A stretch of DNA of 63,847 bases, counting the filler, from Reticulomyxa filosa (Eukaryota; Protista; Foraminifera), in assembly GCA_000512085.1 (NCBI GenBank). It is 18 parts of 18 records of this genome, joined end to end, with 100 filler letters (N's around TTAATTAATTAA, not from the genome) between each part and the next. Parts side by side here need not be neighbours in the genome. Positions count along the whole stretch, not along the records: positions 1 to 2,069 come from ASPP01033097.1; 17 more parts are not named here. One strand, 5' to 3'. The position numbers and the translations under genes are program-made. The notes under the pieces were generated by a model. The model did not search any database, was not told where the DNA came from, and saw nothing but the letters and a program-made list of their open reading frames with translations. Positions 1 to 55,000 of the stretch are shown here, one piece after another (position 1 is the stretch's first letter; every line of letters begins with the position of its first letter).

Positions 1-1188
1 ACAATTATAAGCATTTACTGCACGCTGTAATTTATGATAATATTGCCTGATCAAATTTTTTTGTTTGTTTTTTCCGCTCAAATACATGCATGCTTGATTG
101 AAGTCAGATACAATCATATTTGGAAATGTATCATGTTCAATATTATTGTCAGCTAAATCTTTTAGGAAAGCACCATTACCTTCATCTTCTGTGAAACCAA
201 ACCAGCTTACCATTTGATCGTCTACATAAATAGTTTCATCATCGTTTTTTGAATCGATACAACTAAATAATTTGTTTATAATTAATTGATGATCATCTAA
301 TATTATTAAATTTGTTTTAACAAATTCATTAAGTGTTAAATTTTGGTTATTTTTTGCCAGATCATTCAAATCAATGCCATTGAAAAAAGTATCATTATCA
401 GCATCCAAATCTTTGACAAGTGTTTCATTATTATCATTTAATAATAACTGATCTAATGGATTGTCAATTTGTTCATTACCAGAATTATGATCATGATTAT
501 TATCATTATTAATACAATCGAAAGAAAGATTTAATTTTTTTTGTTTGGATGCAGATAATAATGAATTAGGTCCTTCTATGTCCATATTTCTTTTTTTCCA
601 AATAGTTTTCTCTTGTTTATCAACTATCACTAACTGAATAATATCATCAGAAGATTCAAAATCTTTTTCAGTTAGCTGTTGCATTGGATATTGGTAAAGT
701 TGGAAGTTTATACAATTCGCATTTCCAATATGCATTTGCTTGCTTGACCATTTACATCCATTTGATATTAAAGGATTGAAAACAACATATTTATTACTAT
801 TATATAGATGTATGAAACCTTCAAATGTCATATAACACGAACCACAAATCAATCGAAGATTCTCAGATTTTTTGCCACTTGTATCAAATTGAACATTATA
901 AAGTTTGTGATAATTAAATATCACGAAATCTACATCTTTTATTTCATTTTTCTGCAATTTGCAAATTAAATCTTTTTTTTTGTCATCACAATGCCTTGTA
1001 CGAAAGTATAACATTTGAAGCATTTGCAGCTTTGACCTCTCGCTGTATGGCAAAGAATACTCCTTCAAAAAAGACACTAATTCATTGTTTTTAAGACCCA
1101 CAATGGCGGACCAAGACAACGGCGGCGGACATTTAAGAATGGAAACATTACCATTAACTTCATCATCACTATGATTGGATTGCGACAT
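1..1188 (-). CDS. Intronless ORF (at least 396 aa, runs off the window) with an N-terminal SAP/HeH-like motif and a C-terminal MSV199-like (virus-type DNA-binding) domain
   Basis: Manual translation from ATG at 1188 (MSQSNHSDDE...) has no stop down to base 1. It is absent from the ORF track because it lacks a stop. Motifs: LKNNELVSFLKEYSLPYSERSKLQMLQML, and LTLNEFVKTN...IYVDDQMVSWFGF...FLKDLADNNIEH...DFNQACMYL...NLIRQYYHKLQRAVNAY. Confidence 0.7.
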   Translation of the reverse strand, partial: MSQSNHSDDEVNGNVSILKCPPPLSWSAIVGLKNNELVSFLKEYSLPYSERSKLQMLQMLYFRTRHCDDKKKDLICKLQKNEIKDVDFVIFNYHKLYNVQFDTSGKKSENLRLICGSCYMTFEGFIHLYNSNKYVVFNPLISNGCKWSSKQMHIGNANCINFQLYQYPMQQLTEKDFESSDDIIQLVIVDKQEKTIWKKRNMDIEGPNSLLSASKQKKLNLSFDCINNDNNHDHNSGNEQIDNPLDQLLLNDNNETLVKDLDADNDTFFNGIDLNDLAKNNQNLTLNEFVKTNLIILDDHQLIINKLFSCIDSKNDDETIYVDDQMVSWFGFTEDEGNGAFLKDLADNNIEHDTFPNMIVSDFNQACMYLSGKNKQKNLIRQYYHKLQRAVNAYNC

Positions 1189-2069
1189 CTAAAAATGAAT
1201 GCTTTTACAAATCTTTCTCTTGATCAATACAAAATGAATGAACTTCAGTTCCCTGTAAAAAAAAAGTCCTTTTATATAAAAAAAGCTGTCTTTTATGTGA
1301 AAACTTATTTCTTTTCCAATGGCACTTCATAAGTTCGAAAGTGAGATTGAACTAGTTGCTTTGAATATCAAAGGCTAAGCATCCTCCTAAACAATTTCCT
1401 TTTTTTTTTGGTAAACCACCCAGTCGAATTGGTGATAACTTTATTTAATTTCTCGAGTTGAACTTGTCAAGATTCGAGTATGTGCAAAATCAAAAAGAAA
1501 AATGATCCTTTTTTTATTAGATAAATATTTCTCAATATGTGATGCCAAAGCGGCAGTGAAACTCCAATTTGATTTGTGAAATAAAAACAGTAAGGAGTCC
1601 AATAATAATAAGTCAATAGAAAACAGACCCAATGCGAATAACCAGTCATTCAAGTTTAGATTATTTGGAGGGGATAGTTTCATAAATCCAGTTTATTTTT
1701 TTTTTCCCACTCCCCTTCAAAAATTCTTTCTTCAAAATTCAAAAAACCCAGACAAATAATCTTCTCAAAGGAGTAACACAAAGCATAAAAAAAGAACACT
1801 TGTTTGATTTTGTAGTTTTTCGAAATTCTTTGCGAAATTCCAAATGTTTCATAAATATTTAATGCTGTTCTCCAGACCAAATCTGATGTAGGGATCAACG
1901 GATCACTATATGCAATTTCAGCGTATAGTAATTAGCTGATTGCATGAGCTCACCCACGTAAGGGGGAAAGCATCCAAAATTATACCGCCTGTGTTTTATC
2001 GTGTTATCAATGGTTTTCTGTTCTCTTGCTTGGATCAAACATTCAACACTCAAAAAGACCAAAAAAAAA

Positions 2070-34785: not shown

Positions 34786-37700
34786 TTATTCTTCTTGTGG
34801 TCCTGTGCTGGGTGTGGGTGTAGCTGTTTGTGTGGGTGATTGAACAGAAGTATTGACCGCTTTTCCTCGTCCACTTTTGAAAGCATTTCCCATGCTTGAC
34901 AACCGACTAATGCCTCTGCCATGTCCAAACGTTTGTACAACATCAGGATGAGCGTTATCGTATCTATACATACGTGTATATGTGTATATATTTTTAAATA
35001 TTTCCAAGTTGTTCAGCAATTTGCCCAGTTAAGATTGTTAAGTAAGAAAATCACATAACTTCTCAACAACGGCAGATAAGTCCACCTTTTTCACAAATTC
35101 CATGATTTCAGGAACCCGGAGACTAAGACGTTGTGCCCAAGACATAACCTGAAGCATGAACAATTCGGTTCCGTTTGCACGAGTTTGAGAGGAGTTGATT
35201 AACAATTGGGTCATCTTTTGCACCCAAATTTGCCAAGTTTTATCAAAGAACTTATCTTTTTGTTGCAACAGCCTTTCCATCAGCAACAACCATGGCATAA
35301 AATCGTTTCGTTGCGTATTGAATTCTTCACGTAGACATTTGAAGCACCAATCCAACACATAGTCCGCGAACTGAGCGTTGTTATAGCACCAATACAACAG
35401 TATATTACACACGCTATTTTCATGTGGACAGTCTCCATATTCGCCACTGCGATCACTGAACAAGCGTCCCAACAGTGCAGCTTTCATCAGTTTGCGAGGA
35501 TACAAGGAAAGCGGCTTTCGGTTGTATATTTCTTCCAGATCTGGAGGCAAAGGCACATTGCGATGCTCCTTTTGGAATTGCTGCAATCGCTTTTCTTCCT
35601 CTTGGTATTTGTCAAACTCCTCCGCACTTGGAAGCGGGTCGACTGCACGTGGGATCGTCCACAATGGCGGGTCTTCCAATGGATAGTTTGGATCGAATCC
35701 GCCCCACAATGCACTACGATCTTGCTCGTCCAGCACTGATGCAGACAAAGAGTACACATATATGTGTATATATATATATTTTTTTTTTTTTGGTAACAAA
35801 TGAAACAGTTTAGTTTTTCCAAAACTGATAGGAAGAGTATTTTTATCGATGGTATTCGGAGGACGATCGAATGTAGAGATAATCTCAATCTCTTTTTCTG
35901 TGAAGTCAAATTCGGAAGACACATTTAAGTTAGGAGTTGACTGTTCTTTTACTTCGTTTTCTTGGTACTTTGCTTCTTCGTCGATGAGTGGATTTGATTG
36001 TTTCAATTTGTCGTCTTCCTTCTGTGCTGTATCTGATGGTGGTGTGGCCGCAGTAGTAGTAGTAGCAGTAGCAGTAGTAGCTGCTGTAGAAGCAAGAGCA
36101 GTTGACGTCGGCGCAGATGATTCTTGGTTGGATGCAGGTACTTCGATTGGCTCTTTGTCTTGCTTGTTAGGTTCGGTCGTGGTATTTGTTGCGGGCGTCT
36201 GATCTGTAGGTGCGACTACGATAAGTGGTGGTAGATCAGGAGTCTCTTGCTGTGGTTTGCCATTTGCGTCCTGGGCATTGACTGCAGAATTGGGTTGGAA
36301 TTCGGATTGAGATTGAGGCTGGGGTTGTGTGGTTGCAACTGGATCGATTGTGATGGCCGTAGTAGACACTGTCGGCTTCAGAGTCACGCTGTTTTTCTTC
36401 GATGGTGCTTGTTGACTGGTGGCGTCTTGGAATTTGGCCAACTTATTTAAATCGGTTTGCAATGGGAATGTCGGAGTAGTGCACGAGCGGATGAGAATGG
36501 ACAGCAGATCGATTAGCTCGGACGTCCTTGGAGGGAGTATACGTTTGTATTGCTTCTTTCCACTATTATCCTTGCCTGCTACGCTGCGATTGAAATGCAA
36601 ATGGAACCAGTCATTTAAATAAAAGCCAATGATAGCTCGAATGGTGCCAATGCCTACCAGCAGCTGTCGTTCCTCGCGTCCGAGCAAGGCAATGCCTTTC
36701 AGCAATACGAAGAAGCTTTGATATTTTTGATGATATTCCGTGGTCATAGCCAAAAAGCGCACCATTTTGGTGATGAAGCGAGCACAGCAAAATTGGTCCG
36801 CATTCAAAATCTCTGCAGATGAAATGGTCGTTCCAGACGACGAGGACGCATTCTCCACATCGGGCCATTCCAAAATACTCTCCTTATAACTGTCATCGCC
36901 ATCGGAGCTGGTATCAACGGCAGCCTCTTCGGCCTTTACTTTCTCCACAAACTCGACGTAATTGTGCTTTTCATACTGTCGTTGGATCAGCAATACTCCG
37001 ACGATCAAGTCGGCAAAAGCCAAGCGTATGGACTCATGCGTACAGCGGAATATGATATTCACAAACCATTGGGGCTGCGTGCACACCTTGTACAGCAGCC
37101 AACGTCTGCCCGGCTGAGAGATGACAAACAATTGGTACAACTGTCTCATCCACGTCGGATACGAGGTGTTGTCTTTGCTTCGCACTAAAATCTCAAACAC
37201 ATACGACGTGGCGATTTGAATCGTTCGCAACAGGTCATCGGATGAGGGCGGGTTTTCGTCGCTTCTTTGTGTCGGCACCAGCGAAAATTCGTGGGCACTT
37301 TCTTTGTTTTGTCCAGGGTCAACGTGTCTTTGCAACGTGGTTTGCACAATATTCCATACAAAAGTGAGGTAATCAAAATCAAACACATTGCGATTCGTGA
37401 AGAACTCCAAATCGTCCTTCCAAATATTTTTTTCTACAGGCTCTGCAATTTGAAAGTTTATGTTCTTGTCTTGTCCGAGCTTCTTGTTGCCCTTGTGTCC
37501 GTTCACGTTCAACAAGGCCAAATCACCGTTTGTCATGCTATCGCTGCTATCATGGTACGCCGTTGTCACTGTCGCTGCTGTTGCCATTGCATGTGTCTCC
37601 GCATTCGGTTTGCTGTCGTCAAACTTGCGTCGGTACACTAACATGTACGCATTGTATGGTTTCTCCGCCTCTTTTTGGATTTTGTGCTCTGGGTTTTGTG

Positions 37701-40700
37701 GATCCTCAACCGTCACTACATGCGTTCCTCCGTATGTTTCTGCATCAATACTAATTTGTGTGTAATACGATTATGATACACATAAATTCTTATATACACA
37801 TATATAAACATAAAGTCTATCTCTTTCTTCATTGCTCTTTTAACTCTTTGGTATCAAATGGCAACACTTCCATGTCGTTGAATTCCCACCATTTGCCATC
37901 CGACGACTGGCCATAGGAATAGTAATGTCCACTATTGGCACTGCCGGTGTGCACCAATATACCTACCAATTGGTACTCATAATATTCTGGAGGATGCAAT
38001 GAGGTGAAAGTGTATTGACGTTGGTGTTGTGTCGGTTCGGGAATTTGGTCATTGCCATTGCCATTTCCATTGATTGTGGTGCTTGTTGTGGTCGCTGTTG
38101 CAGTGATATCATTACTGTCAAGATCAGCAGGCATATCATCTTTGGTTTCCATTTCATTCGCATCTTCGGTCGCAATTTCCTCCGGATATTTGGACTCTTT
38201 CTCTTGTCTTTCAATTTCTTCTTTATGTGCCAATCCTTCAGCAGTATATTTTTCCATGTTCAATTCCATTGGAAATTCAAATCTCGAGTTCAACTTGAAT
38301 CTCGCCATCGAATTGAAATCAAATTCAAAGCGCGACAAGTGCAATAACAAGTATTTGGGTAGAGTTTTGAAACATACCCGTCTCAATGCCAATATCTTTT
38401 CATTGCACTGACTGCAGAAATATTTGTTCTCTCCGTCCAACAAATCGCCTTGCACGTATAAATCTAACGATTCCCGCAGATTTGCTTTGTTTTTCACAGT
38501 CAAAGATGCCGTCAAGAATTTCTCTTCGCGCTCACTGCCATGCGTGCATTTATCGTCTTTTGAAATCATTTGATTGACCAAATATCCACCAAAACTATCT
38601 TTAATTGCATCTTTGTGGTCCGTTTTATTCAAGTCGTGTTCCAATTGATCGAACAGTCGATTGCAAAATTCATTGACATCTTGCTGTTCTCCCAAAGGCA
38701 TGGGGTTTCCATCGTAGCCCTTGAATGCCATACACAAGGGCATAGTATCATAAAACTTCTTTTGACTAATACTCAAATGCCCAAACAGCAATTGCATTTG
38801 ATACAATAAGCTATCTTTCGGAAGGATTCCGTGCTTAATTAACTCGACTGATTCTTCATCCAAATCTTCCTGTTTCTGGTCCCCTGAACGCTGCAAGTTC
38901 CCCCCCCCCGTCCACGTATACATACAAAACATATTTGCTATTTGTTTTTTTTTAAAAAAAAAAACAAAAAACAAACAGTATACGTATTTGTATAAAATGT
39001 TAAACTATCAAACGTGCTTCCAAAATATCCTTTGTGAAATTTTCATTGATAAACAACTGCTGCAACAATGAATTCATATAACATGTGGCACCTGGTTTTT
39101 CAAGCCGACGTACCGAATTGGAAATCTCTCTTCGTCAGTGGGATGATATTTCCATGTTGCTTCTTTCAAGTCTCGTGGACGGACATGGAACCAAATGGGA
39201 TCGGAATAAATCAACTTTTGCAACGACATCAGTGTGTCTGGATAAAATGTGGTCAACGAATGCAACAGCGCAAATGCCATTTGTCTGGATTTCACAGCTT
39301 TGCACTTGCTTCCGGGGTTGTTGTGCTGCGGTACATTGAACAAGCAGTCGGCATAGACATATTGGATTAACTCACCTACTGTCGCACTATCTTTGAACAG
39401 GCGATGTGCACTGCACAAACGCAGCAATTTCAGCGTACCGACCAAATATTCATCGGCTTTTTCCGGATCTGTATTGTCTTCCGTCGACACGTATTTTTGC
39501 AACACCTTCACAAACTCCTCGGCGTTGCCTTTCACCTGCGCGGAGACAGCTGTGTCCGCGTCTTTGTACGTGCGACAAACATGGTCAAACACATGTAAAA
39601 ACAATTGAAAGAATTCATCACTTTCTGGTTGTTGAGCATTGCTCATTTTATACACTCGCACCAATTCATTCATCAATCGAATTGATATCGCAACATTCCG
39701 TTTTTTTTTTTTTTTTTTTTTGTAACAAACAAAAAAAATCTGTTTGTTTCATCATAGAGTAATAACAATGTGTGCGTGTGTGTATGTAAGAAGATCATAT
39801 ATGTACAATATATGTGTATATATTATATGAATGTAATGTACTAACGTCAGCCAATGGAACACGTGATAACATTTGCAACGCCTTGCACATTTGTTCTTTA
39901 GTATTTGGATAGTGGTGGTTGAATAGAAGCTTTGTTAACCACTTTTGCAAATCTTTGGTTTTGAATAAAGTGTCGGCATAGGAAGGGAAGGTGCGAATAC
40001 ACCCAACCAAAATGAACATTGATTCCACCAAAATGTTTGCCCCGGCTGGCCCCATATCGTGTTGATTTACATTGAGGATGCTGACAGCGCGATTGACACG
40101 CAACTCCAACTGCCGCAATGGATTGGGCTCTTTGCCATTGGACTCGACCGGCCGTTTCGAGATCGTTTTGTCTGCTTTTTTTTGGTCATCCAATAGGTCG
40201 TGTCCAAGCGCGGATTTGTTTTTCGCAGCTTCACTGCCGGTACTTGGCAAAAGCAGTGTGTTGCCAAGAGCGGAAGAGCGCATTGGTGGATCGCCAATTT
40301 TCACCTCTGGTTCATGTTCGTTGTCATCATCATTGTCATGTGCACTTGGTGTCTTATCACACAAACAAACAAATTAGATTTTTTTTTTAAAAAAAAAAAT
40401 AGTTTCAATTGATATACAAAAATAAAACATAAAAACTTCTGGTTTGATATCATCTGGAGGTATATCTGCCCACTGCAAGATGACATCAGACACTTGCAAA
40501 GTCTTTTTCACCAATTTGTCTTTGTTGTCATTCCATTGTTTGGTTTTGAGGATGCTTCCTTCTGCCAATTTTTTGTCATTGTGTGGAATGACGGATTGGA
40601 ACATTGGCTCCATCGACAATAGCATGCTAATGATTTGAATGCAAAAGGCCAAGCACGAAGCTTTGATCTTACGTCCGACATCAGCTGTGCTGTTATTTGG

Positions 40701-42373
40701 ACTATCATCTTCATTGCCCAAGTCTTTACTCGCCAACGAGTCGGTCATCAGTTCGTCATTAAATAGTAATTCGCAAAGGAAGCCAAACCCACCAAAGTTC
40801 ACAAATCGCGCAATCCATTCGACATGAGTGACATTTCTGTATCTCTGCAGCAAATACTCGGGTCGATATTCTTCTCCAGATATTATCGCAGACAATATTT
40901 GTAAATAATATAGCATTCGATAAGGATCTTTGACATCAAGCAGTTGTGCAAATTGCTCAACATTGGCTTGGAACACCAAATTCAATACCCCTTGCACACG
41001 TCCAAAACTTGGTGGCAATAGTTCCAATATATCCCATACCAACGGCGCAATCTTTGGGTTTTTCAACAGTGGAAACAAGTAGTCATACGCGAGTTGTTCT
41101 TTATTGAAAAGCCGTAATTCGGTTATATGTTTAAAGCCTGTTAATTTTGGATGTTGTGGTGGTTGAGGATATGAGGATTCGATTGGATGAATGTAGCCAT
41201 CGGCAATTGGTTGGTTCATTGTACTATTCAATCAAAACAATTTTTTTTTTTTTTGCATACAAAGTTATATCTTATGTTAAATGCATATACATATATGTAT
41301 ACATATATATGCATATAATGTATATTATAAACTCTCCGTACCATCGTTCAAAATCCCTGACTAAGCTGTATTCAGTTCGGGACACATCTAAAACGTTGCT
41401 TTTATTCCATTCGAAATTGACCAAACGGACGTTATCATTGTTGGATCCAATAATAAATTTGTTCCATCTGATAATCATTTCGCTTTCCACCAATCCGTTG
41501 TGAATGTTATGGAGACGATTGAAAATGGTTTTTCGTAGATTACCAAATGAATCGTTGATTCTCACGACCAACTTGTAATTGGCCAATCGGAAGAATTTGT
41601 GCGGGCGGATTTCCAATTCAACTGTTTGTTTGGTATCCTCCTTTTGCACAAAACACTCCAAAAACGATTTCAATAAACGAATCATGCGTTTTACCACAAT
41701 ACGTCGATCCTCGCTCTGTTTTTCCGTCGCCAACCCTTGAGTCAAAAATCCCAGGCACCGTTGTACGTGTGCTTGGCGAATTTCAAATTGCTCCTTCGAT
41801 TTCAAACGCACGGTAAAATTGAAGTGCAATGCGTTTAATAACTCACTCGCTTGGTTGCCAACAATGGGCAAACGAGCTCGTAATACGACATCCCTTTCAA
41901 TTGCATGTTTTGTTTTTACTGTTGTCACTTGGCTTTTAAATGATATGTATGTATGTGTCAATACTATGCATATGTGTATGTGTGAATATAAGCCAACCAA
42001 AAGTAGTTGCGTCCTTCCAATTGCTGGTAATCGACAATGTGTAAAAGCTTTGGATCGACATAGTGATCATCAGGGTCAATCAAATACGAACTGCCATCTT
42101 CGTTCAACATATCATTGTCTAAACTGGTAATGTATTGTCCTAATACTTCTCGGGCTGCTTCAGTGGGGGACATTGGCGGTACTTTTTTGGAAAGATCTAA
42201 TCTTGGACTTGTCGACGCTGTTTTCCCATTTGTCGCTTGGCGAATCAGGTCTCTCTCTTCAGATGTCGGCAATTTCTTTTTCGTCCCTTTGATCAACAAT
42301 GAGCCATTTCGTTTATTTACTGAGCAGAAAAATGACACTACCAATAGATATCCCGTCTATTTATCAGCCAATA

Positions 42374-50490: not shown

Positions 50491-53454
50491 AAAAAAAAAA
50501 TTGATTTTTTTGTGCTGTATGGATATGTGTCCGTGTGTGTATGTGTAATGTTTGAACAATGCCAGCCTGGAATGGTATACATATTTTCCCATTGGCAACA
50601 GTCATATGACAACACCTGTGCGGACATTTTCAATCGCCATGTCCTCACGTATCGCTATGCGGATGTCCAGTGTACCATAGTCGGCAATGCCAATGACATG
50701 TTGCAAATGAGTAAAACTACATTTGTCAGCAGCTTCACCAAGTTCTTACGCGGGTCCAGCGATGCAATCACCACGTCGCTGACATGGGAGTGGCATTGTG
50801 TACGCTACGAATGGGTCACTCTCGACCAACAGTCTTCTAGGCAAGGATATTGGAACAACTCCCACTCTTGTGACTACTTGTTCCAGCCCACCAATGGTCA
50901 AAGCAGATATAATATTTCTTTTGTTAATGAGTCGGCCTTTCTTGAAAATGGACATATGTACTGGTATCAGTTTAGTGCTTTGGGCTCTTTTTTCGTACAC
51001 GCACACACAATGTATCCCATGTCCTCTGAATAGTATATACACATATGTACATATAAATTTTTATGTTTATACATGTGTATTTATGTATATACATATTTGC
51101 ATATGGACACACACACACATACGCACACAACATTAACGTATGGAAAGATTCTCAATGAAAGTGAGTGATTGGAAGGAAGCCTATCGCAGACCATGTTCGC
51201 AGAGTGTAGCCGTAAAGGTTATCTTGAATGACACTGTTGCAAGCCAATGGCTATCCGTTGCTTTAACAATACCTTCCTCTTCTTCTTCTTCTTCTTCTTC
51301 TTCATCGTCGTCCTCCTCCTCCTCTTCGTACGTCGTTTCCAATGATGCAAGGATTCGCATCCTTGGCAGTTTAGTTGGCACATCCTCTTCAGCCTCCAAT
51401 TACGTGTGCCAATGGCGCGAGCTCAATGGGTATCTCTCCAACCAAAACTTGGCGCTGTATCAAAGCAACACCGACTTATGCTTCAATTTGGTCCTCGACC
51501 CTTCTCTTGTTCCCGCGGTAAATAATGGCAAGTGGATCCAAGGCGCGGTCTATCGCTTCAGCATAGATGTATACACCACCGATTTTTCGAAGCACGGAAC
51601 CGCGACCATCGATATCACAATTGCAAAGTTGCCCACTGTTGTTCCAAATTCCTTTCAGCTTTCGCCACAATGTGGTTCTTTTAATCTTCAGTTCCCTTCC
51701 TAAAAAAAAAAAAAAAAAAAAAAAAAGTAACTTTGTTGTTATGTGTGTGTGATGTACATGCATTTATTTATTTATTAATTTAATACTACGTATATAAACA
51801 AAAGAAAATTCTTATGTATACATTGCACATGTAATGTGATAGATTTATTGAGGATGCATTGAATACGTCCTATGATATGACAGTAAGTAGTGAAACGGAT
51901 GACAGCGACAAAGGACAGTTGGAGTATTTGTATACGTATGTACTGAACAATTCGTCTGGCCAGTACAGAAGCAACTACTCGGAGACTGAACTCCCCTCGC
52001 TGTTTGTTGGGCCTTGGTTTGTGACAAGCAACACGTGGACCAATGTGTTACTACCAATGGTACTCGGCTTGGAGATTCAAGTCGTTGTGAAAAATAAGCA
52101 AACGAATGCCATTGTGTTGGAATCCCAAGCTTGCTTTGGAAAGGACAACAGCAGCAGCAGCAACAACAGCGAATGGAAGTTTAGTGGGTCGATTTGCGAT
52201 TGGCGATTCCGTTTGTTGCAGTTTTTGCAAAACGCCAACACCACATATCGCATCACGGACACAAACACTCGGCTGCAGTTGCTGCAGTTGTATACCAACG
52301 TCATTGTCACCGAATATTGGAACGAACGCATTATTTATAACGCGACGATACAATGCGACCAACGGAAATGGAGTAGACAAAACTTTTGGGAACAAACGCT
52401 GGAATGGTTATACCGAGACATTCAAGAGGTCATGACTTGCGATAATGCGGACTGGTTGGTACCAATGCTGACGCAGACCCTGTCCATTGGCACCTCCTGG
52501 GTCAATTCGCTGAACAACACAAGTTTGCAAAGATGGATTGAATTGATTACGTGGGTGTATGACCCCTGCAATATCTTGCGAAAAGTCAAAGATACCAAAC
52601 AATTGACCGTCAATGGTATGGACATTAGTTGGAGTTAAGTGATTTTTTTTTTATTTTATTTACATTATCTACAAATGCAAAAGTATATGTATAAGTTTGC
52701 TATGATCAAAAATAAAATAGACGGAACAGTGATTACAACAAAATTAACCCCGTTATTGCAAACAACAACGTATGTGGACTTGCTGTTGTATTGCATGGAC
52801 GCTACCTTTGGCTTGTTGCCAAGCGTATCAACAAAATTGCAACAAAATGCGACATCTCCATCTGCAAAGTTGCTTTTGCAAGAGATCAATCAATTGTCCA
52901 TGTTGCTGTTGAACGTCGTATATGTGTCCCAACTATTATTTTTATCCGAGTCTTTGCCATCCGAGTATTTCCTTTGGAACCGATCGAATTTCCAATTGAC
53001 TTCAACTTTATTTGGTCTTTTTTTTTTTTTTAAAGTGTTGAAAATGATAATAATAATAATAATAAAATGAATGACTTTAAATATTACATTTTAAAAAAAA
53101 AGTGGCAAGCAAAGATGTAAATATCGGCGTTGGACAAGGCGTGATAAGTGTGCCAGCATCATTTGCAGGAAGTGAGAAGGACAGCTACTATGTGGTGGCG
53201 ATGGACTACTCAGCGGAAGCGATGCAAGTGAATCAGACGAGCATGAAAGGCAAGTTGTTGTCATCGCAGTCGATAGAAGTGACGATAACCCAAGCAGATG
53301 GCAAGCCGTTGAATACGTCTGTATTAGCACATCCAATTCGCATTAACTTTTCACTGGACATCCCTATCGAGACAGCAACGAATTTGACTTGCGTGTGGTA
53401 TGATTGGAAGAATGAGACGTGGGAGCCGAGTGGATGCCATATCTATCAAAGTAT

Positions 53455-53487
<33 letters not shown>

Positions 53488-55000
53488 GTCTGTCTCTGAG
53501 ACTACAAATCATTGGGTGGTATGTGAATGTTCTCATTTGACCACGTTCAGTTTGCTGCAACAATTCACAACCAATAATAAAAGTAGCTCAGAAACACAAT
53601 TGGCGACCATGGAATACGAGTTGATACACTTGGCCTTTGCGATATTGTTTGGATGTGTATTTGTATATATGGTTGTATTACTACTGCCATTGTATCGACA
53701 AGGAGGGTTGCAATGCTCCACCATGACGCAGGGACTTTTGAACGTGTGTCTGCTTCCACTGCAAGCCTTGTTCCAGATCGCTTTAACATTGGAGTTCTAC
53801 TTGATTGGCTTGCTCAGCAAAAGTCGATCTCTGGACCTCACCACATGCGCCATCATTGCCATCATCATCCTGCTGCTCTCCACACTCCTTTATTTTGTCA
53901 TGCTTTGCATTATTGTATACACCTGGATTATGCTCTCCTCGCCGTTTCGAGGCCACTTTAACCAGAGTCCCCACGCCGGCGGACGACACAAGCATAGCAA
54001 CAGTCTGACCGAATGGCTGGGCGAAACCATTGTCCTGCGTCTCTTCATCATCGTCGCCGTCATGGTCGTGCTCTTGTTCATGAACTTTGCCTTCATCGCT
54101 TTGCGCTTGGATTACGCTTATGTGTGTGGCGAGTACGTGTGGACCATTTATGTCACCCTCTGTGCTTGCATCTTTAGTTATTATGGATACAAAATGGATC
54201 AGACCGTCAGTGGATCTATTTACATGATGAAAAATTTGTGGGAAATGAAACAAGTATGTACAATACACATTATATATATTTACATGTATGTATGCATATG
54301 TCAATGTATACGTGATTATTCATTCATACTCCGAAATATGTGTTTGTAGCAAAGACTCGCAGATGTGATCAATCGTGGCTCGTCGCTGAGTCCGAACGAC
54401 AAGTTGTCACAGCCGCAATTGCAGCTTGAAAATGTCCCCAGCAACAGCGCGCAAAAGACGTTGACAAAGCACTTGAGCGTTCGAAAACGTGGTTTCAGCG
54501 ATGATGCGAATGGGACAATAGATAATGAGAATAATGACGATGGCAATTGTAATTGTAGTGACAGTAACAATAAAACAAGCAATGATAACAAAAAAATAAT
54601 AATAATAATAATAATAATAATCAGTATCCGAAAGGTCGTTCATTGACACAAACATGGTCCTCGGGACACAGCAAACAAAAGTCGTCGATGGACAGCAAGT
54701 CTTTTGTGTCTGTCTTCTCGAGTGAAAAGGACAAAGAGCAGTTCAAAAAAGAAGAACAGGCTTTGGTGCGAACGCGCATTTCCGTCGTCGTAGTCGTGCT
54801 GTTCTTTGTCATTCAGTCGTTCTTGAGCATTTGGAACTTGGCTCATTTGAAGAGCGCCAAGCACATGTTTTCGATGTCTGTCTCCATCCGCGTTATTGAT
54901 CTGTCCTCTCACGCTTTCTTGCTCATCGTTTTGTGTTACATCTATACCGCTCACGTGCGCAAGCGCGTACGCGACCTTGAGCGTCTCAGGGCAGAGTACA
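50491..55000 (+). CDS. REJ/PKD-like ectodomain + GPS (GAIN) + seven-TM adhesion-GPCR-like receptor, partial
   Basis: GPS motif CVWYDWKNETWEPSGC...CECSHLTTFSLL. REJ-like LVLDPSL..GAVYRFSIDV..GTATIDITI. Five hydrophobic helices in 53610-54190 and two more in 54775-54945. Confidence 0.8.

What the first reader, a model, noticed from the sequence alone, without database searches (positions are those of the whole stretch)
1..1188. Hidden intronless ORF with a virus-type MSV199-like domain and a SAP/HeH-like motif: possible endogenous large-DNA-virus element
Seen: at least 396 uninterrupted codons without introns, whereas most neighbouring genes are intron-rich. The ORF track missed it. Knowledge: the last ~115 aa (EFVK...IYVD..MVSWFGF...F...L..NNIE...DF..ACM.L...IRQYY..L) follow the pattern of the MSV199 domain found in entomopox-, irido- and mimi-like viruses. 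The LKNNEL..FLKEYSL...K.QML segment resembles a SAP/HeH DNA-binding helix pair. Inference: a viral gene integrated or domesticated in a foraminiferan, or a contig from a co-sequenced virus.
Basis: partly seen in the sequence, partly recalled or inferred. Interest (0 to 1): 0.75.

Follow-up and report, generated by a model that had tools for sequence, protein, structure and literature searches.

The report
Giant-virus-type DNA-binding gene in foraminiferan
A cut-off gene in a foraminiferan genome assembly encodes a strongly diverged copy of a domain (MSV199) otherwise found here only in large DNA viruses and unnamed metagenome contigs, and is likely a leftover of a virus integrated in the host, predicted to bind DNA.

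Summary
The 396-codon open frame is real (minus strand, 1188 to 1), cut by the end of a 2,069-base contig. It is the gene deposited as Reticulomyxa filosa RFI_33892, whose model removes a 39-base 'intron' that is probably false. Residues 267-396 are a diverged MSV199 domain: top Pfam hit though below cut-off; 24.4 bits against a virus-only profile versus at most 8.9 for 500 shuffles. It groups with two unnamed metagenome proteins and giant-virus copies, not iridovirus-type ones, on a long branch, and lacks the central loop. The SAP-like motif beats a recalled-consensus null but has no Pfam or PDB hit. 'Intronless among intron-rich neighbours' is no argument: the window is 18 joined contigs and other frames are as long. 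Integration is inferred (host-like 4-mer content, published capsid genes in this assembly); no flank, expression or depth data exist. The scan had noted MSV199 genes in giant viruses and other viral pieces in this genome, but no look-alike of this gene. Verdict: real viral-type gene, new member of a known family, moderate-low interest.

The parts
1..1188 (-). Open reading frame, 396 codons, ATG at 1188, runs off the contig end; same gene as R. filosa RFI_33892 (partial)
   Evidence: GC3 0.23 against 0.33-0.58 for 12 other long frames of the window
1..390 (-). Diverged MSV199 domain (aa 267-396): N-terminal extension shared with P0004, P0033 and L210, core with W329, G331, N348-N349-I350, Y383-Y384; about 30 residues of the central loop missing
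   Evidence: Pfam PF10553 E 0.0048, 17.6 bits, cut-off 22.4; virus-only profiles 24.4 and 22.0 bits; alignments; model pLDDT 76; Foldseek
159..197 (-). 39-base GT-AG stretch that the deposited gene model removes as an intron; probably coding
   Evidence: in frame, no stop, 38% GC; encodes G331 and F341, conserved; removing it drops the profile score from 24.4 to 10.3 bits (that model also lacks the last 6 residues)
391..588 (-). Asn/Asp-rich low-complexity linker (aa 201-266); basic patches at aa 198-200 and 215-218 resemble a nuclear localisation signal (by eye, recalled pattern, untested)
   Evidence: sequence
589..1008 (-). Orphan region (aa 61-200), no family or relative found
1009..1104 (-). 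SAP-like two-helix motif (aa 29-60), suggestive only; both conserved glycines absent
   Evidence: recalled consensus, 13 of 19; no hit
1189..2069 (.). Upstream DNA to the contig end: no frame above 83 codons, no Pfam or Rfam hit, 7 A/T runs of 7 or more bases

Best explanation
The frame encodes a protein with a diverged MSV199 domain behind a SAP-like motif and an orphan region, and it is likely a cargo gene of a large DNA virus or virus-like element integrated in the foraminiferan's genome, predicted to act as a DNA-binding protein. Shown: the frame, the domain homology, its position nearer giant-virus than iridovirus copies, the missing loop. Inferred: (1) the gene continues beyond the contig into a coiled coil and a DUF3627 or T5orf172-type tail, as its relatives do; (2) MSV199 and the SAP-like motif both grip DNA, so the product would tether its tail to viral or host chromatin; (3) it came with one of the DNA viruses known to have left capsid genes in this assembly, or with a larger giant virus, and has since drifted towards host composition while keeping its frame; (4) it has no host role yet.
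For: Only real hit among 1.84 billion representatives besides itself is P0004, an MSV199 protein at E 6e-13 (the third hit was a repeat artefact). Virus-only profile: 24.4 bits whole, 20.8 for aa 351-396, which lies outside the motif used to collect the viral genes; best of 500 shuffles 8.9; best other window frame 5.0. A second profile from 4 giant-virus copies: 22.0 bits, shuffles at most 8.3. Foldseek ranks 1-17 in BFVD: 7 named MSV199, 7 other large-DNA-virus proteins, 3 unnamed. Tree of 30 rows: P0001, P0004, P0033 and four giant-virus-contig copies form one side of a branch, 98/98; two of those sit beside a viral RNA polymerase Rpb2 gene. In 16 of 16 iridovirus-type proteins scanned MSV199 passes cut-off and 14 carry partner domains such as DUF3627, T5orf172, GIY-YIG, KilA-N or HTH; P0033 has MSV199 + DUF3627. 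4-mer model: upstream DNA scores above 70 of 70 viral chunks and within the host range (13 of 63 host chunks lower). Six capsid genes (cluster MMPC_14) are listed for this assembly in the supplement of PMC10120064; Polinton polymerases of R. filosa are cited in 10.1101/809541.
Against: No host gene or integration junction on the contig, so integration is not shown. The MSV199-coding 880 bases score at the host/virus border (2 of 63 host chunks lower, 2 of 70 viral chunks higher), and GC3 0.23 fits the viral genes (0.16-0.36) better than the window's other frames. By ORF cover the contig (0.69, longest gap 252) is not clearly sparser than viral loci (0.72-0.94, gaps 116-773). The viral reference set for composition is iridovirus-type only. 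The Pfam score is under the cut-off, no Foldseek hit reaches E 0.001, and the model was built on viral MSV199 rows, so the fold match is partly circular. P0001 is a long branch (1.64-2.55), so its place is unsure. An intact 396-codon frame argues against long neutral decay. No link to the MMPC_14 virus or the Polintons was tested.
Confidence: 0.5

Rival explanations
1. The contig is a piece of a free, unintegrated large DNA virus or virus-like replicon (or of another organism in the culture) that was sequenced with the host; the gene is an ordinary member of that virus's MSV199 family.
For: Intact frame, no intron, low GC3 like viral copies; nearest relatives are on unnamed metagenome contigs of 2.5 to 55 kb; no host gene on the contig; assembly described as highly fragmented (10.1101/2023.01.27.525846).
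Against: 881 bases upstream hold no frame above 83 codons and 7.9 A/T runs per kb, against 0.4-3.6 per kb in 18 viral loci and 2.0-9.4 in the other 17 contigs; upstream 4-mer content is above all 70 viral chunks.
Confidence: 0.25
2. The gene is domesticated: a viral MSV199 domain fused to a SAP-like chromatin anchor now works as a host nuclear DNA-binding regulator, in the way fungal APSES factors derive from viral KilA-N (recalled, not from a call).
For: Frame intact despite strong divergence; N-terminal 265 residues not seen in any relative fetched; the loop that carries an in-frame palindrome in 3 of 4 giant-virus-type genes is deleted and the other palindrome site is at background; host-like upstream DNA.
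Against: No orthologue or paralogue from any eukaryote in three protein searches and the representative search; no intron supported; GC3 below all 12 other window frames; N-terminal domain swapping is normal within viral MSV199 genes (PMC3493329).
Confidence: 0.2
3. It is an ordinary host gene, spliced as annotated, and the MSV199 likeness is chance or convergence.
For: Whole-protein Pfam scan gave nothing; domain score under Pfam's cut-off; Atlas gave no MSV199 cluster; the deposited model has GT-AG borders.
Against: Two collinear blocks match, including one outside the selecting motif; the 'intron' encodes conserved residues and aligns with P0004; no cellular relative found.
Confidence: 0.05

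Closest known systems
MSV199 domain proteins (Pfam PF10553) of large DNA viruses, e.g. Invertebrate iridescent virus 6 420R (cluster of P0012) and LbFV ORF101 (PMC5381508)
   Same: Conserved core residues, order of blocks and predicted helix pattern; modular protein with other domains around MSV199.
   Different: About 25-30% identity; central loop of about 30 residues missing; 265-residue N-terminal part unlike HTH, KilA-N, Bro-N or GIY-YIG partners; no in-frame palindrome at the site where 15 of 16 non-duplicate iridovirus-type genes have one; lies in a eukaryote assembly.
Giant-virus-contig MSV199 genes L210, L231, L239, L247 (IMG/VR, three from GVMAG records) and unnamed metagenome proteins P0004, P0033/P0036
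   Same: Share the extension before the domain and the I-x-x-D-D/N-x-x-x-x-W-x-G stretch; same side of the tree, 98/98.
   Different: They keep the long loop and have known tails (T5orf172, C2H2 fingers, DUF3627); the tail of P0001 is cut off; P0001 is a long branch.
Endogenous DNA viruses of R. filosa: capsid cluster MMPC_14 (supplement of PMC10120064) and R. filosa Polintons (10.1101/809541)
   Same: Same assembly, viral genes in a foraminiferan.
   Different: No physical link to this contig was tested; MSV199 does not occur in the main text of PMC10120064.
SAP domain (Pfam PF02037) / HeH motif
   Same: Helix-loop-helix hydrophobic spacing at aa 29-60 (recalled consensus).
   Different: Both glycines and the final arginine absent, one insertion; no Pfam or PDB hit.

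Membership tests
MSV199 domain (PF10553) | Score at or above Pfam gathering cut-off (22.4 bits) | tested here: not met
   17.6 bits, E 0.0048, sole hit for the last 120 aa; nothing for the whole protein
MSV199 domain (PF10553) | Homology to bona fide members over the length of the domain | tested here: met
   virus-only profiles 24.4 and 22.0 bits against shuffles at most 8.9 and 8.3; P0004 link
MSV199 domain (PF10553) | Same predicted fold as viral members | tested here: met
   Foldseek BFVD ranks 1-17, TMq 0.51-0.70, best E 0.014; partly circular because viral rows built the model
MSV199 domain (PF10553) | Partner tail (DUF3627, T5orf172, GIY-YIG) after the domain | not testable with these tools
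   contig ends at the last helix; genome not held, no runs listed
MSV199 domain (PF10553) | DNA binding | not testable with these tools
   only proposed in print ('may have DNA binding properties', PMC5381508); PDB fold matches weak, best Z 4.2
SAP / HeH | Profile hit to SAP, HeH, LEM or Rho_N | tested here: not met
   no such hit at E up to 10 for aa 1-103, 24-64, 24-82; no PDB hit for aa 22-70
SAP / HeH | Consensus residue pattern | tested here: inconclusive
   13 of 19 against at most 11 in 2,000 shuffles and in 810,556 residues of fetched loci; classes recalled and set after seeing the query
Endogenous viral element | Viral homology | tested here: met
Endogenous viral element | Junction with host DNA, host-level read depth | not testable with these tools
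   2,069-base contig without a second gene
Endogenous viral element | Host-like composition or decay | tested here: inconclusive
   4-mers host-range, GC3 viral-range, frame intact
Domesticated viral gene | Orthologues in related hosts, introns, expression, purifying selection | tested here: inconclusive
   no eukaryotic relative (few foraminifera sequenced); intron not supported; expression untested

The most novel reading that the evidence does not exclude
A foraminiferan has domesticated a giant-virus MSV199 domain, shed the loop that carries the viral gene's in-frame palindrome, and fused it to a SAP-like chromatin anchor, making a host nuclear regulator: a second case, after KilA-N/APSES in fungi, of this viral DNA-binding toolkit entering a eukaryote's own regulation.
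Probability: 0.15. Interest if true: 0.65.

Novelty: new member of a known kind. Interest (0 to 1): 0.32.

Why it matters
It adds a giant-virus-type marker to a protist group for which no large DNA virus is named in the papers my searches listed, and it shows how a false intron in a gene model can hide a viral domain from annotation. If integrated, it is one more trace of the DNA viruses already catalogued in this assembly. If domesticated, it would be a rare recruitment of a viral DNA-binding domain. As one truncated gene on a 2-kb contig it cannot yet decide between these.

Tried and rejected
Whole-protein scans against Pfam, PHROGs, NCBIfam and PDB sequences: nothing meaningful. P0003, second hit of the representative search, is a 70-residue tandem repeat artefact. 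Single-sequence model of the whole protein failed (pLDDT 33) and was not searched. ESM Atlas: no hit at 0.9 or more for aa 280-396, none usable for aa 22-200. Whole genome not held; no sequencing run was listed, which is no evidence either way. Searches for close relatives with genomic context found none: viral contigs, JGI metagenomes (scan 82 covered 11 of 64 parts), prokaryote genomes, phages. Viral records were not held for genome search. PDB fold searches gave only weak winged-helix-like rows (best Z 4.2, rmsd 3.7, 81 aligned) and nothing by Foldseek. A 6-base-arm, 14-base-spacer inverted repeat at 107-132 looked like the palindromes noted by earlier agents, but it is one of 15 such repeats in the frame and overlaps a conserved strand, not the loop: rejected as chance. 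A run of 10 purine-pyrimidine symmetric pairs at the iridovirus palindrome site is explained by the amino acids (11% of synonymous shuffles): rejected. No repeats of note, no Rfam hit on the contig. Iyer et al. 2002, which defined the domain, is not held. No complex prediction was run, as no binding partner is claimed.

Full report
Observation. The minus strand from 1188 to 1 reads as 396 codons without a stop and runs off the window; base composition gives about 1e-15 for this by chance. The window is not one locus: 17 linkers of N-runs join 18 contigs, and this gene lies alone on the first, 1-2069. A protein search returned one hit, 'hypothetical protein RFI_33892, partial [Reticulomyxa filosa]', 377 aa, on a contig of 2,069 bases. 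It is identical except for 13 residues removed as a 39-base GT-AG intron (window 197-159) and the last 6 residues. So the gene is in public data, but without a domain. Intron-free length is no mark of a virus here: four other frames of the window without linker reach 391, 422, 498 and 910 codons, and the 391-codon one is a ubiquitin hydrolase exon (2 of 11 long frames scanned had a Pfam hit).

The MSV199 domain. The whole protein hits nothing in Pfam, PHROGs or NCBIfam. The last 120 residues hit PF10553 alone, at E 0.0048 and 17.6 bits, under the cut-off of 22.4. phmmer over 1.84 billion representatives gave 3 hits: itself, a repeat artefact, and P0004 (E 4.5e-6), which is MSV199 at E 6e-13 and aligns through the supposed intron. 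A motif scan of viral contigs gave 52 loci; I scanned the 18 best-scoring non-duplicate frames and 16 were MSV199 above cut-off, 14 of them with DUF3627, T5orf172, GIY-YIG, KilA-N or HTH partners. A profile from 15 of these, without the query, scored P0001 at 24.4 bits in two collinear blocks. The part after the selecting motif (aa 351-396) scored 20.8 alone; the best of 500 shuffles was 8.9, the best other of 402 window frames 5.0, and the deposited spliced model 10.3. The alignment shows W329, G331, N348-N349-I350, Y383-Y384, L387 and Y394 conserved and about 30 loop residues missing. A model built on that alignment (pLDDT 76) found in BFVD, at ranks 1-17, 7 proteins named MSV199, 7 other large-DNA-virus proteins and 3 unnamed, best E 0.014; this is partly circular. 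PDB searches gave only weak rows.

Nearest relatives. A profile search returned 32 proteins, 31 with PF10553 plus the gene itself; the named cluster members are iridovirus 420R proteins, and one other carries a bacterial MAG label. P0033/P0036, unnamed, on contigs up to 28.6 and 55.1 kb, share with P0001 and P0004 a short extension before the domain and end in DUF3627. A second motif scan gave 50 loci, 5 with MSV199; four are of a giant-virus type, two beside an Rpb2 gene. A profile of these four scored P0001 at 22.0 bits, shuffles at most 8.3. In a tree of 43 rows (1 of 44 dropped) P0001, P0004 and P0033 were one side of a branch, 95/97, with a long-branch warning. In a tree of 30 rows (of 49 candidates; close iridovirus-type copies left out) these three and the four giant-virus copies were one side, 98/98, with P0001 unresolved among them on a branch of 1.64. 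Trees are unrooted, so no donor is named. Pairwise, two iridovirus-type copies (23.8, 21.4 bits) score above the giant-virus ones (18.1 and lower), so the placement is not firm.

Palindromes. Earlier notes of this scan describe in-frame palindromes in viral MSV199 genes. I confirmed one centred 7 codons before the conserved Trp in 15 of 16 non-duplicate iridovirus-type genes (8-12 of 12 pairs) and stems of 8-12 pairs in the loop of 3 of 4 giant-virus-type genes. P0001 has 6 of 12 at the first site, which is background, and lacks the loop. Two look-alike signals in P0001 were rejected as chance.

The N-terminal part. Residues 29-60 match 13 of 19 positions of a recalled SAP consensus; 2,000 shuffles and 810,556 residues of fetched loci reach at most 11. 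The classes were set after seeing the query, both glycines are absent, and Pfam and PDB give no hit. It stays a lead. Residues 61-200 have no relative or family; the single-sequence model failed.

Host or virus DNA. The 881 bases upstream have no frame above 83 codons and no Pfam or Rfam hit, with 7 A/T runs; 18 viral loci have 0.4-3.6 runs per kb and the other contigs 2.0-9.4. A 4-mer model places the upstream DNA above 70 of 70 viral chunks and above 13 of 63 host chunks; the domain-coding 880 bases lie at the border. Against: GC3 is 0.23, below all 12 other long frames (0.33-0.58) and inside the viral range (0.16-0.36), and ORF cover (0.69) is close to the viral loci (0.72-0.94). The genome was not held and no run was listed, so depth, flanks and expression are unknown.

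Literature. 'MSV199' occurs in 8 held papers (listing). [quoted passage not shown] None of these passages mentions this gene. For PMC10120064 I saw passages and supplement rows listing 6 capsid genes of cluster MMPC_14 in this assembly. 10.1101/809541 cites R. filosa Polinton polymerases (passages); 10.1101/2023.01.27.525846 calls the assembly highly fragmented (passages). Passages of PMC11980380 and 10.1101/2025.04.19.649669 added nothing. Searches were seen as listings only. The KilA-N/APSES comparison and the SAP pattern are recalled.

Verdict. The frame and its MSV199 domain are real and the deposited intron is probably false. The most likely reading (0.5) is a cargo gene of an integrated large DNA virus or virus-like element, coding for a predicted DNA-binding protein whose tail is cut off. 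A free co-sequenced virus (0.25), a domesticated host regulator (0.2) and chance likeness (0.05) are the rivals. It is a new, diverged member of a known viral family in a host already known to hold viral genes. Interest 0.32.

Noticed in passing
window, whole: The window is 18 separate contigs (1.0-21.1 kb) joined by 44 N + 12-base linker + 44 N; adjacency across linkers means nothing.
   Followed up: yes
window 35038-42356, minus strand: A large ubiquitin-specific protease gene (UCH and DUF3517 hits, USP9/24/34-like by recall) with exons up to 910 codons and AT-rich introns containing TA/CA repeats.
   Followed up: partly
L001-L052 and L217, codons -11 to -4 before the conserved Trp: In-frame palindromes at one fixed position in 15 of 16 non-duplicate iridovirus-type MSV199 genes, with different sequences; giant-virus-type genes (L210, L239, L247) have theirs in the later loop instead.
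   Followed up: partly
P0033/P0036: Unnamed 497-aa MSV199 + DUF3627 protein with a basic N-terminus and a Cys/His-rich motif, on 28-55 kb ENA/Logan contigs; a possible undescribed virus lineage.
   Followed up: partly
P0004; P0005: Source names look wrong: P0004 is called 'ribosomal protein L24' but is MSV199; P0005 (Bro-N + MSV199) is assigned to a Cetobacterium MAG, probably a mis-binned viral contig.
   Followed up: no
L210 30-1097: A DAHP synthase gene beside Rpb2 and MSV199 genes on a giant-virus-type contig.
   Followed up: no
L231 2494-4146, L247 2365-4182: MSV199 proteins with C-terminal C2H2 zinc-finger arrays in a GVMAG record.
   Followed up: no
window 955-978, minus strand (aa 71-78): A second stretch resembling the last helix of a SAP motif follows the first; may be a degenerate tandem unit.
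   Followed up: no
window 51835-54349, plus strand: Long frames ending in a GPS/GAIN-like Cys-Trp pattern (by eye); no Pfam hit at E 0.001.
   Followed up: no
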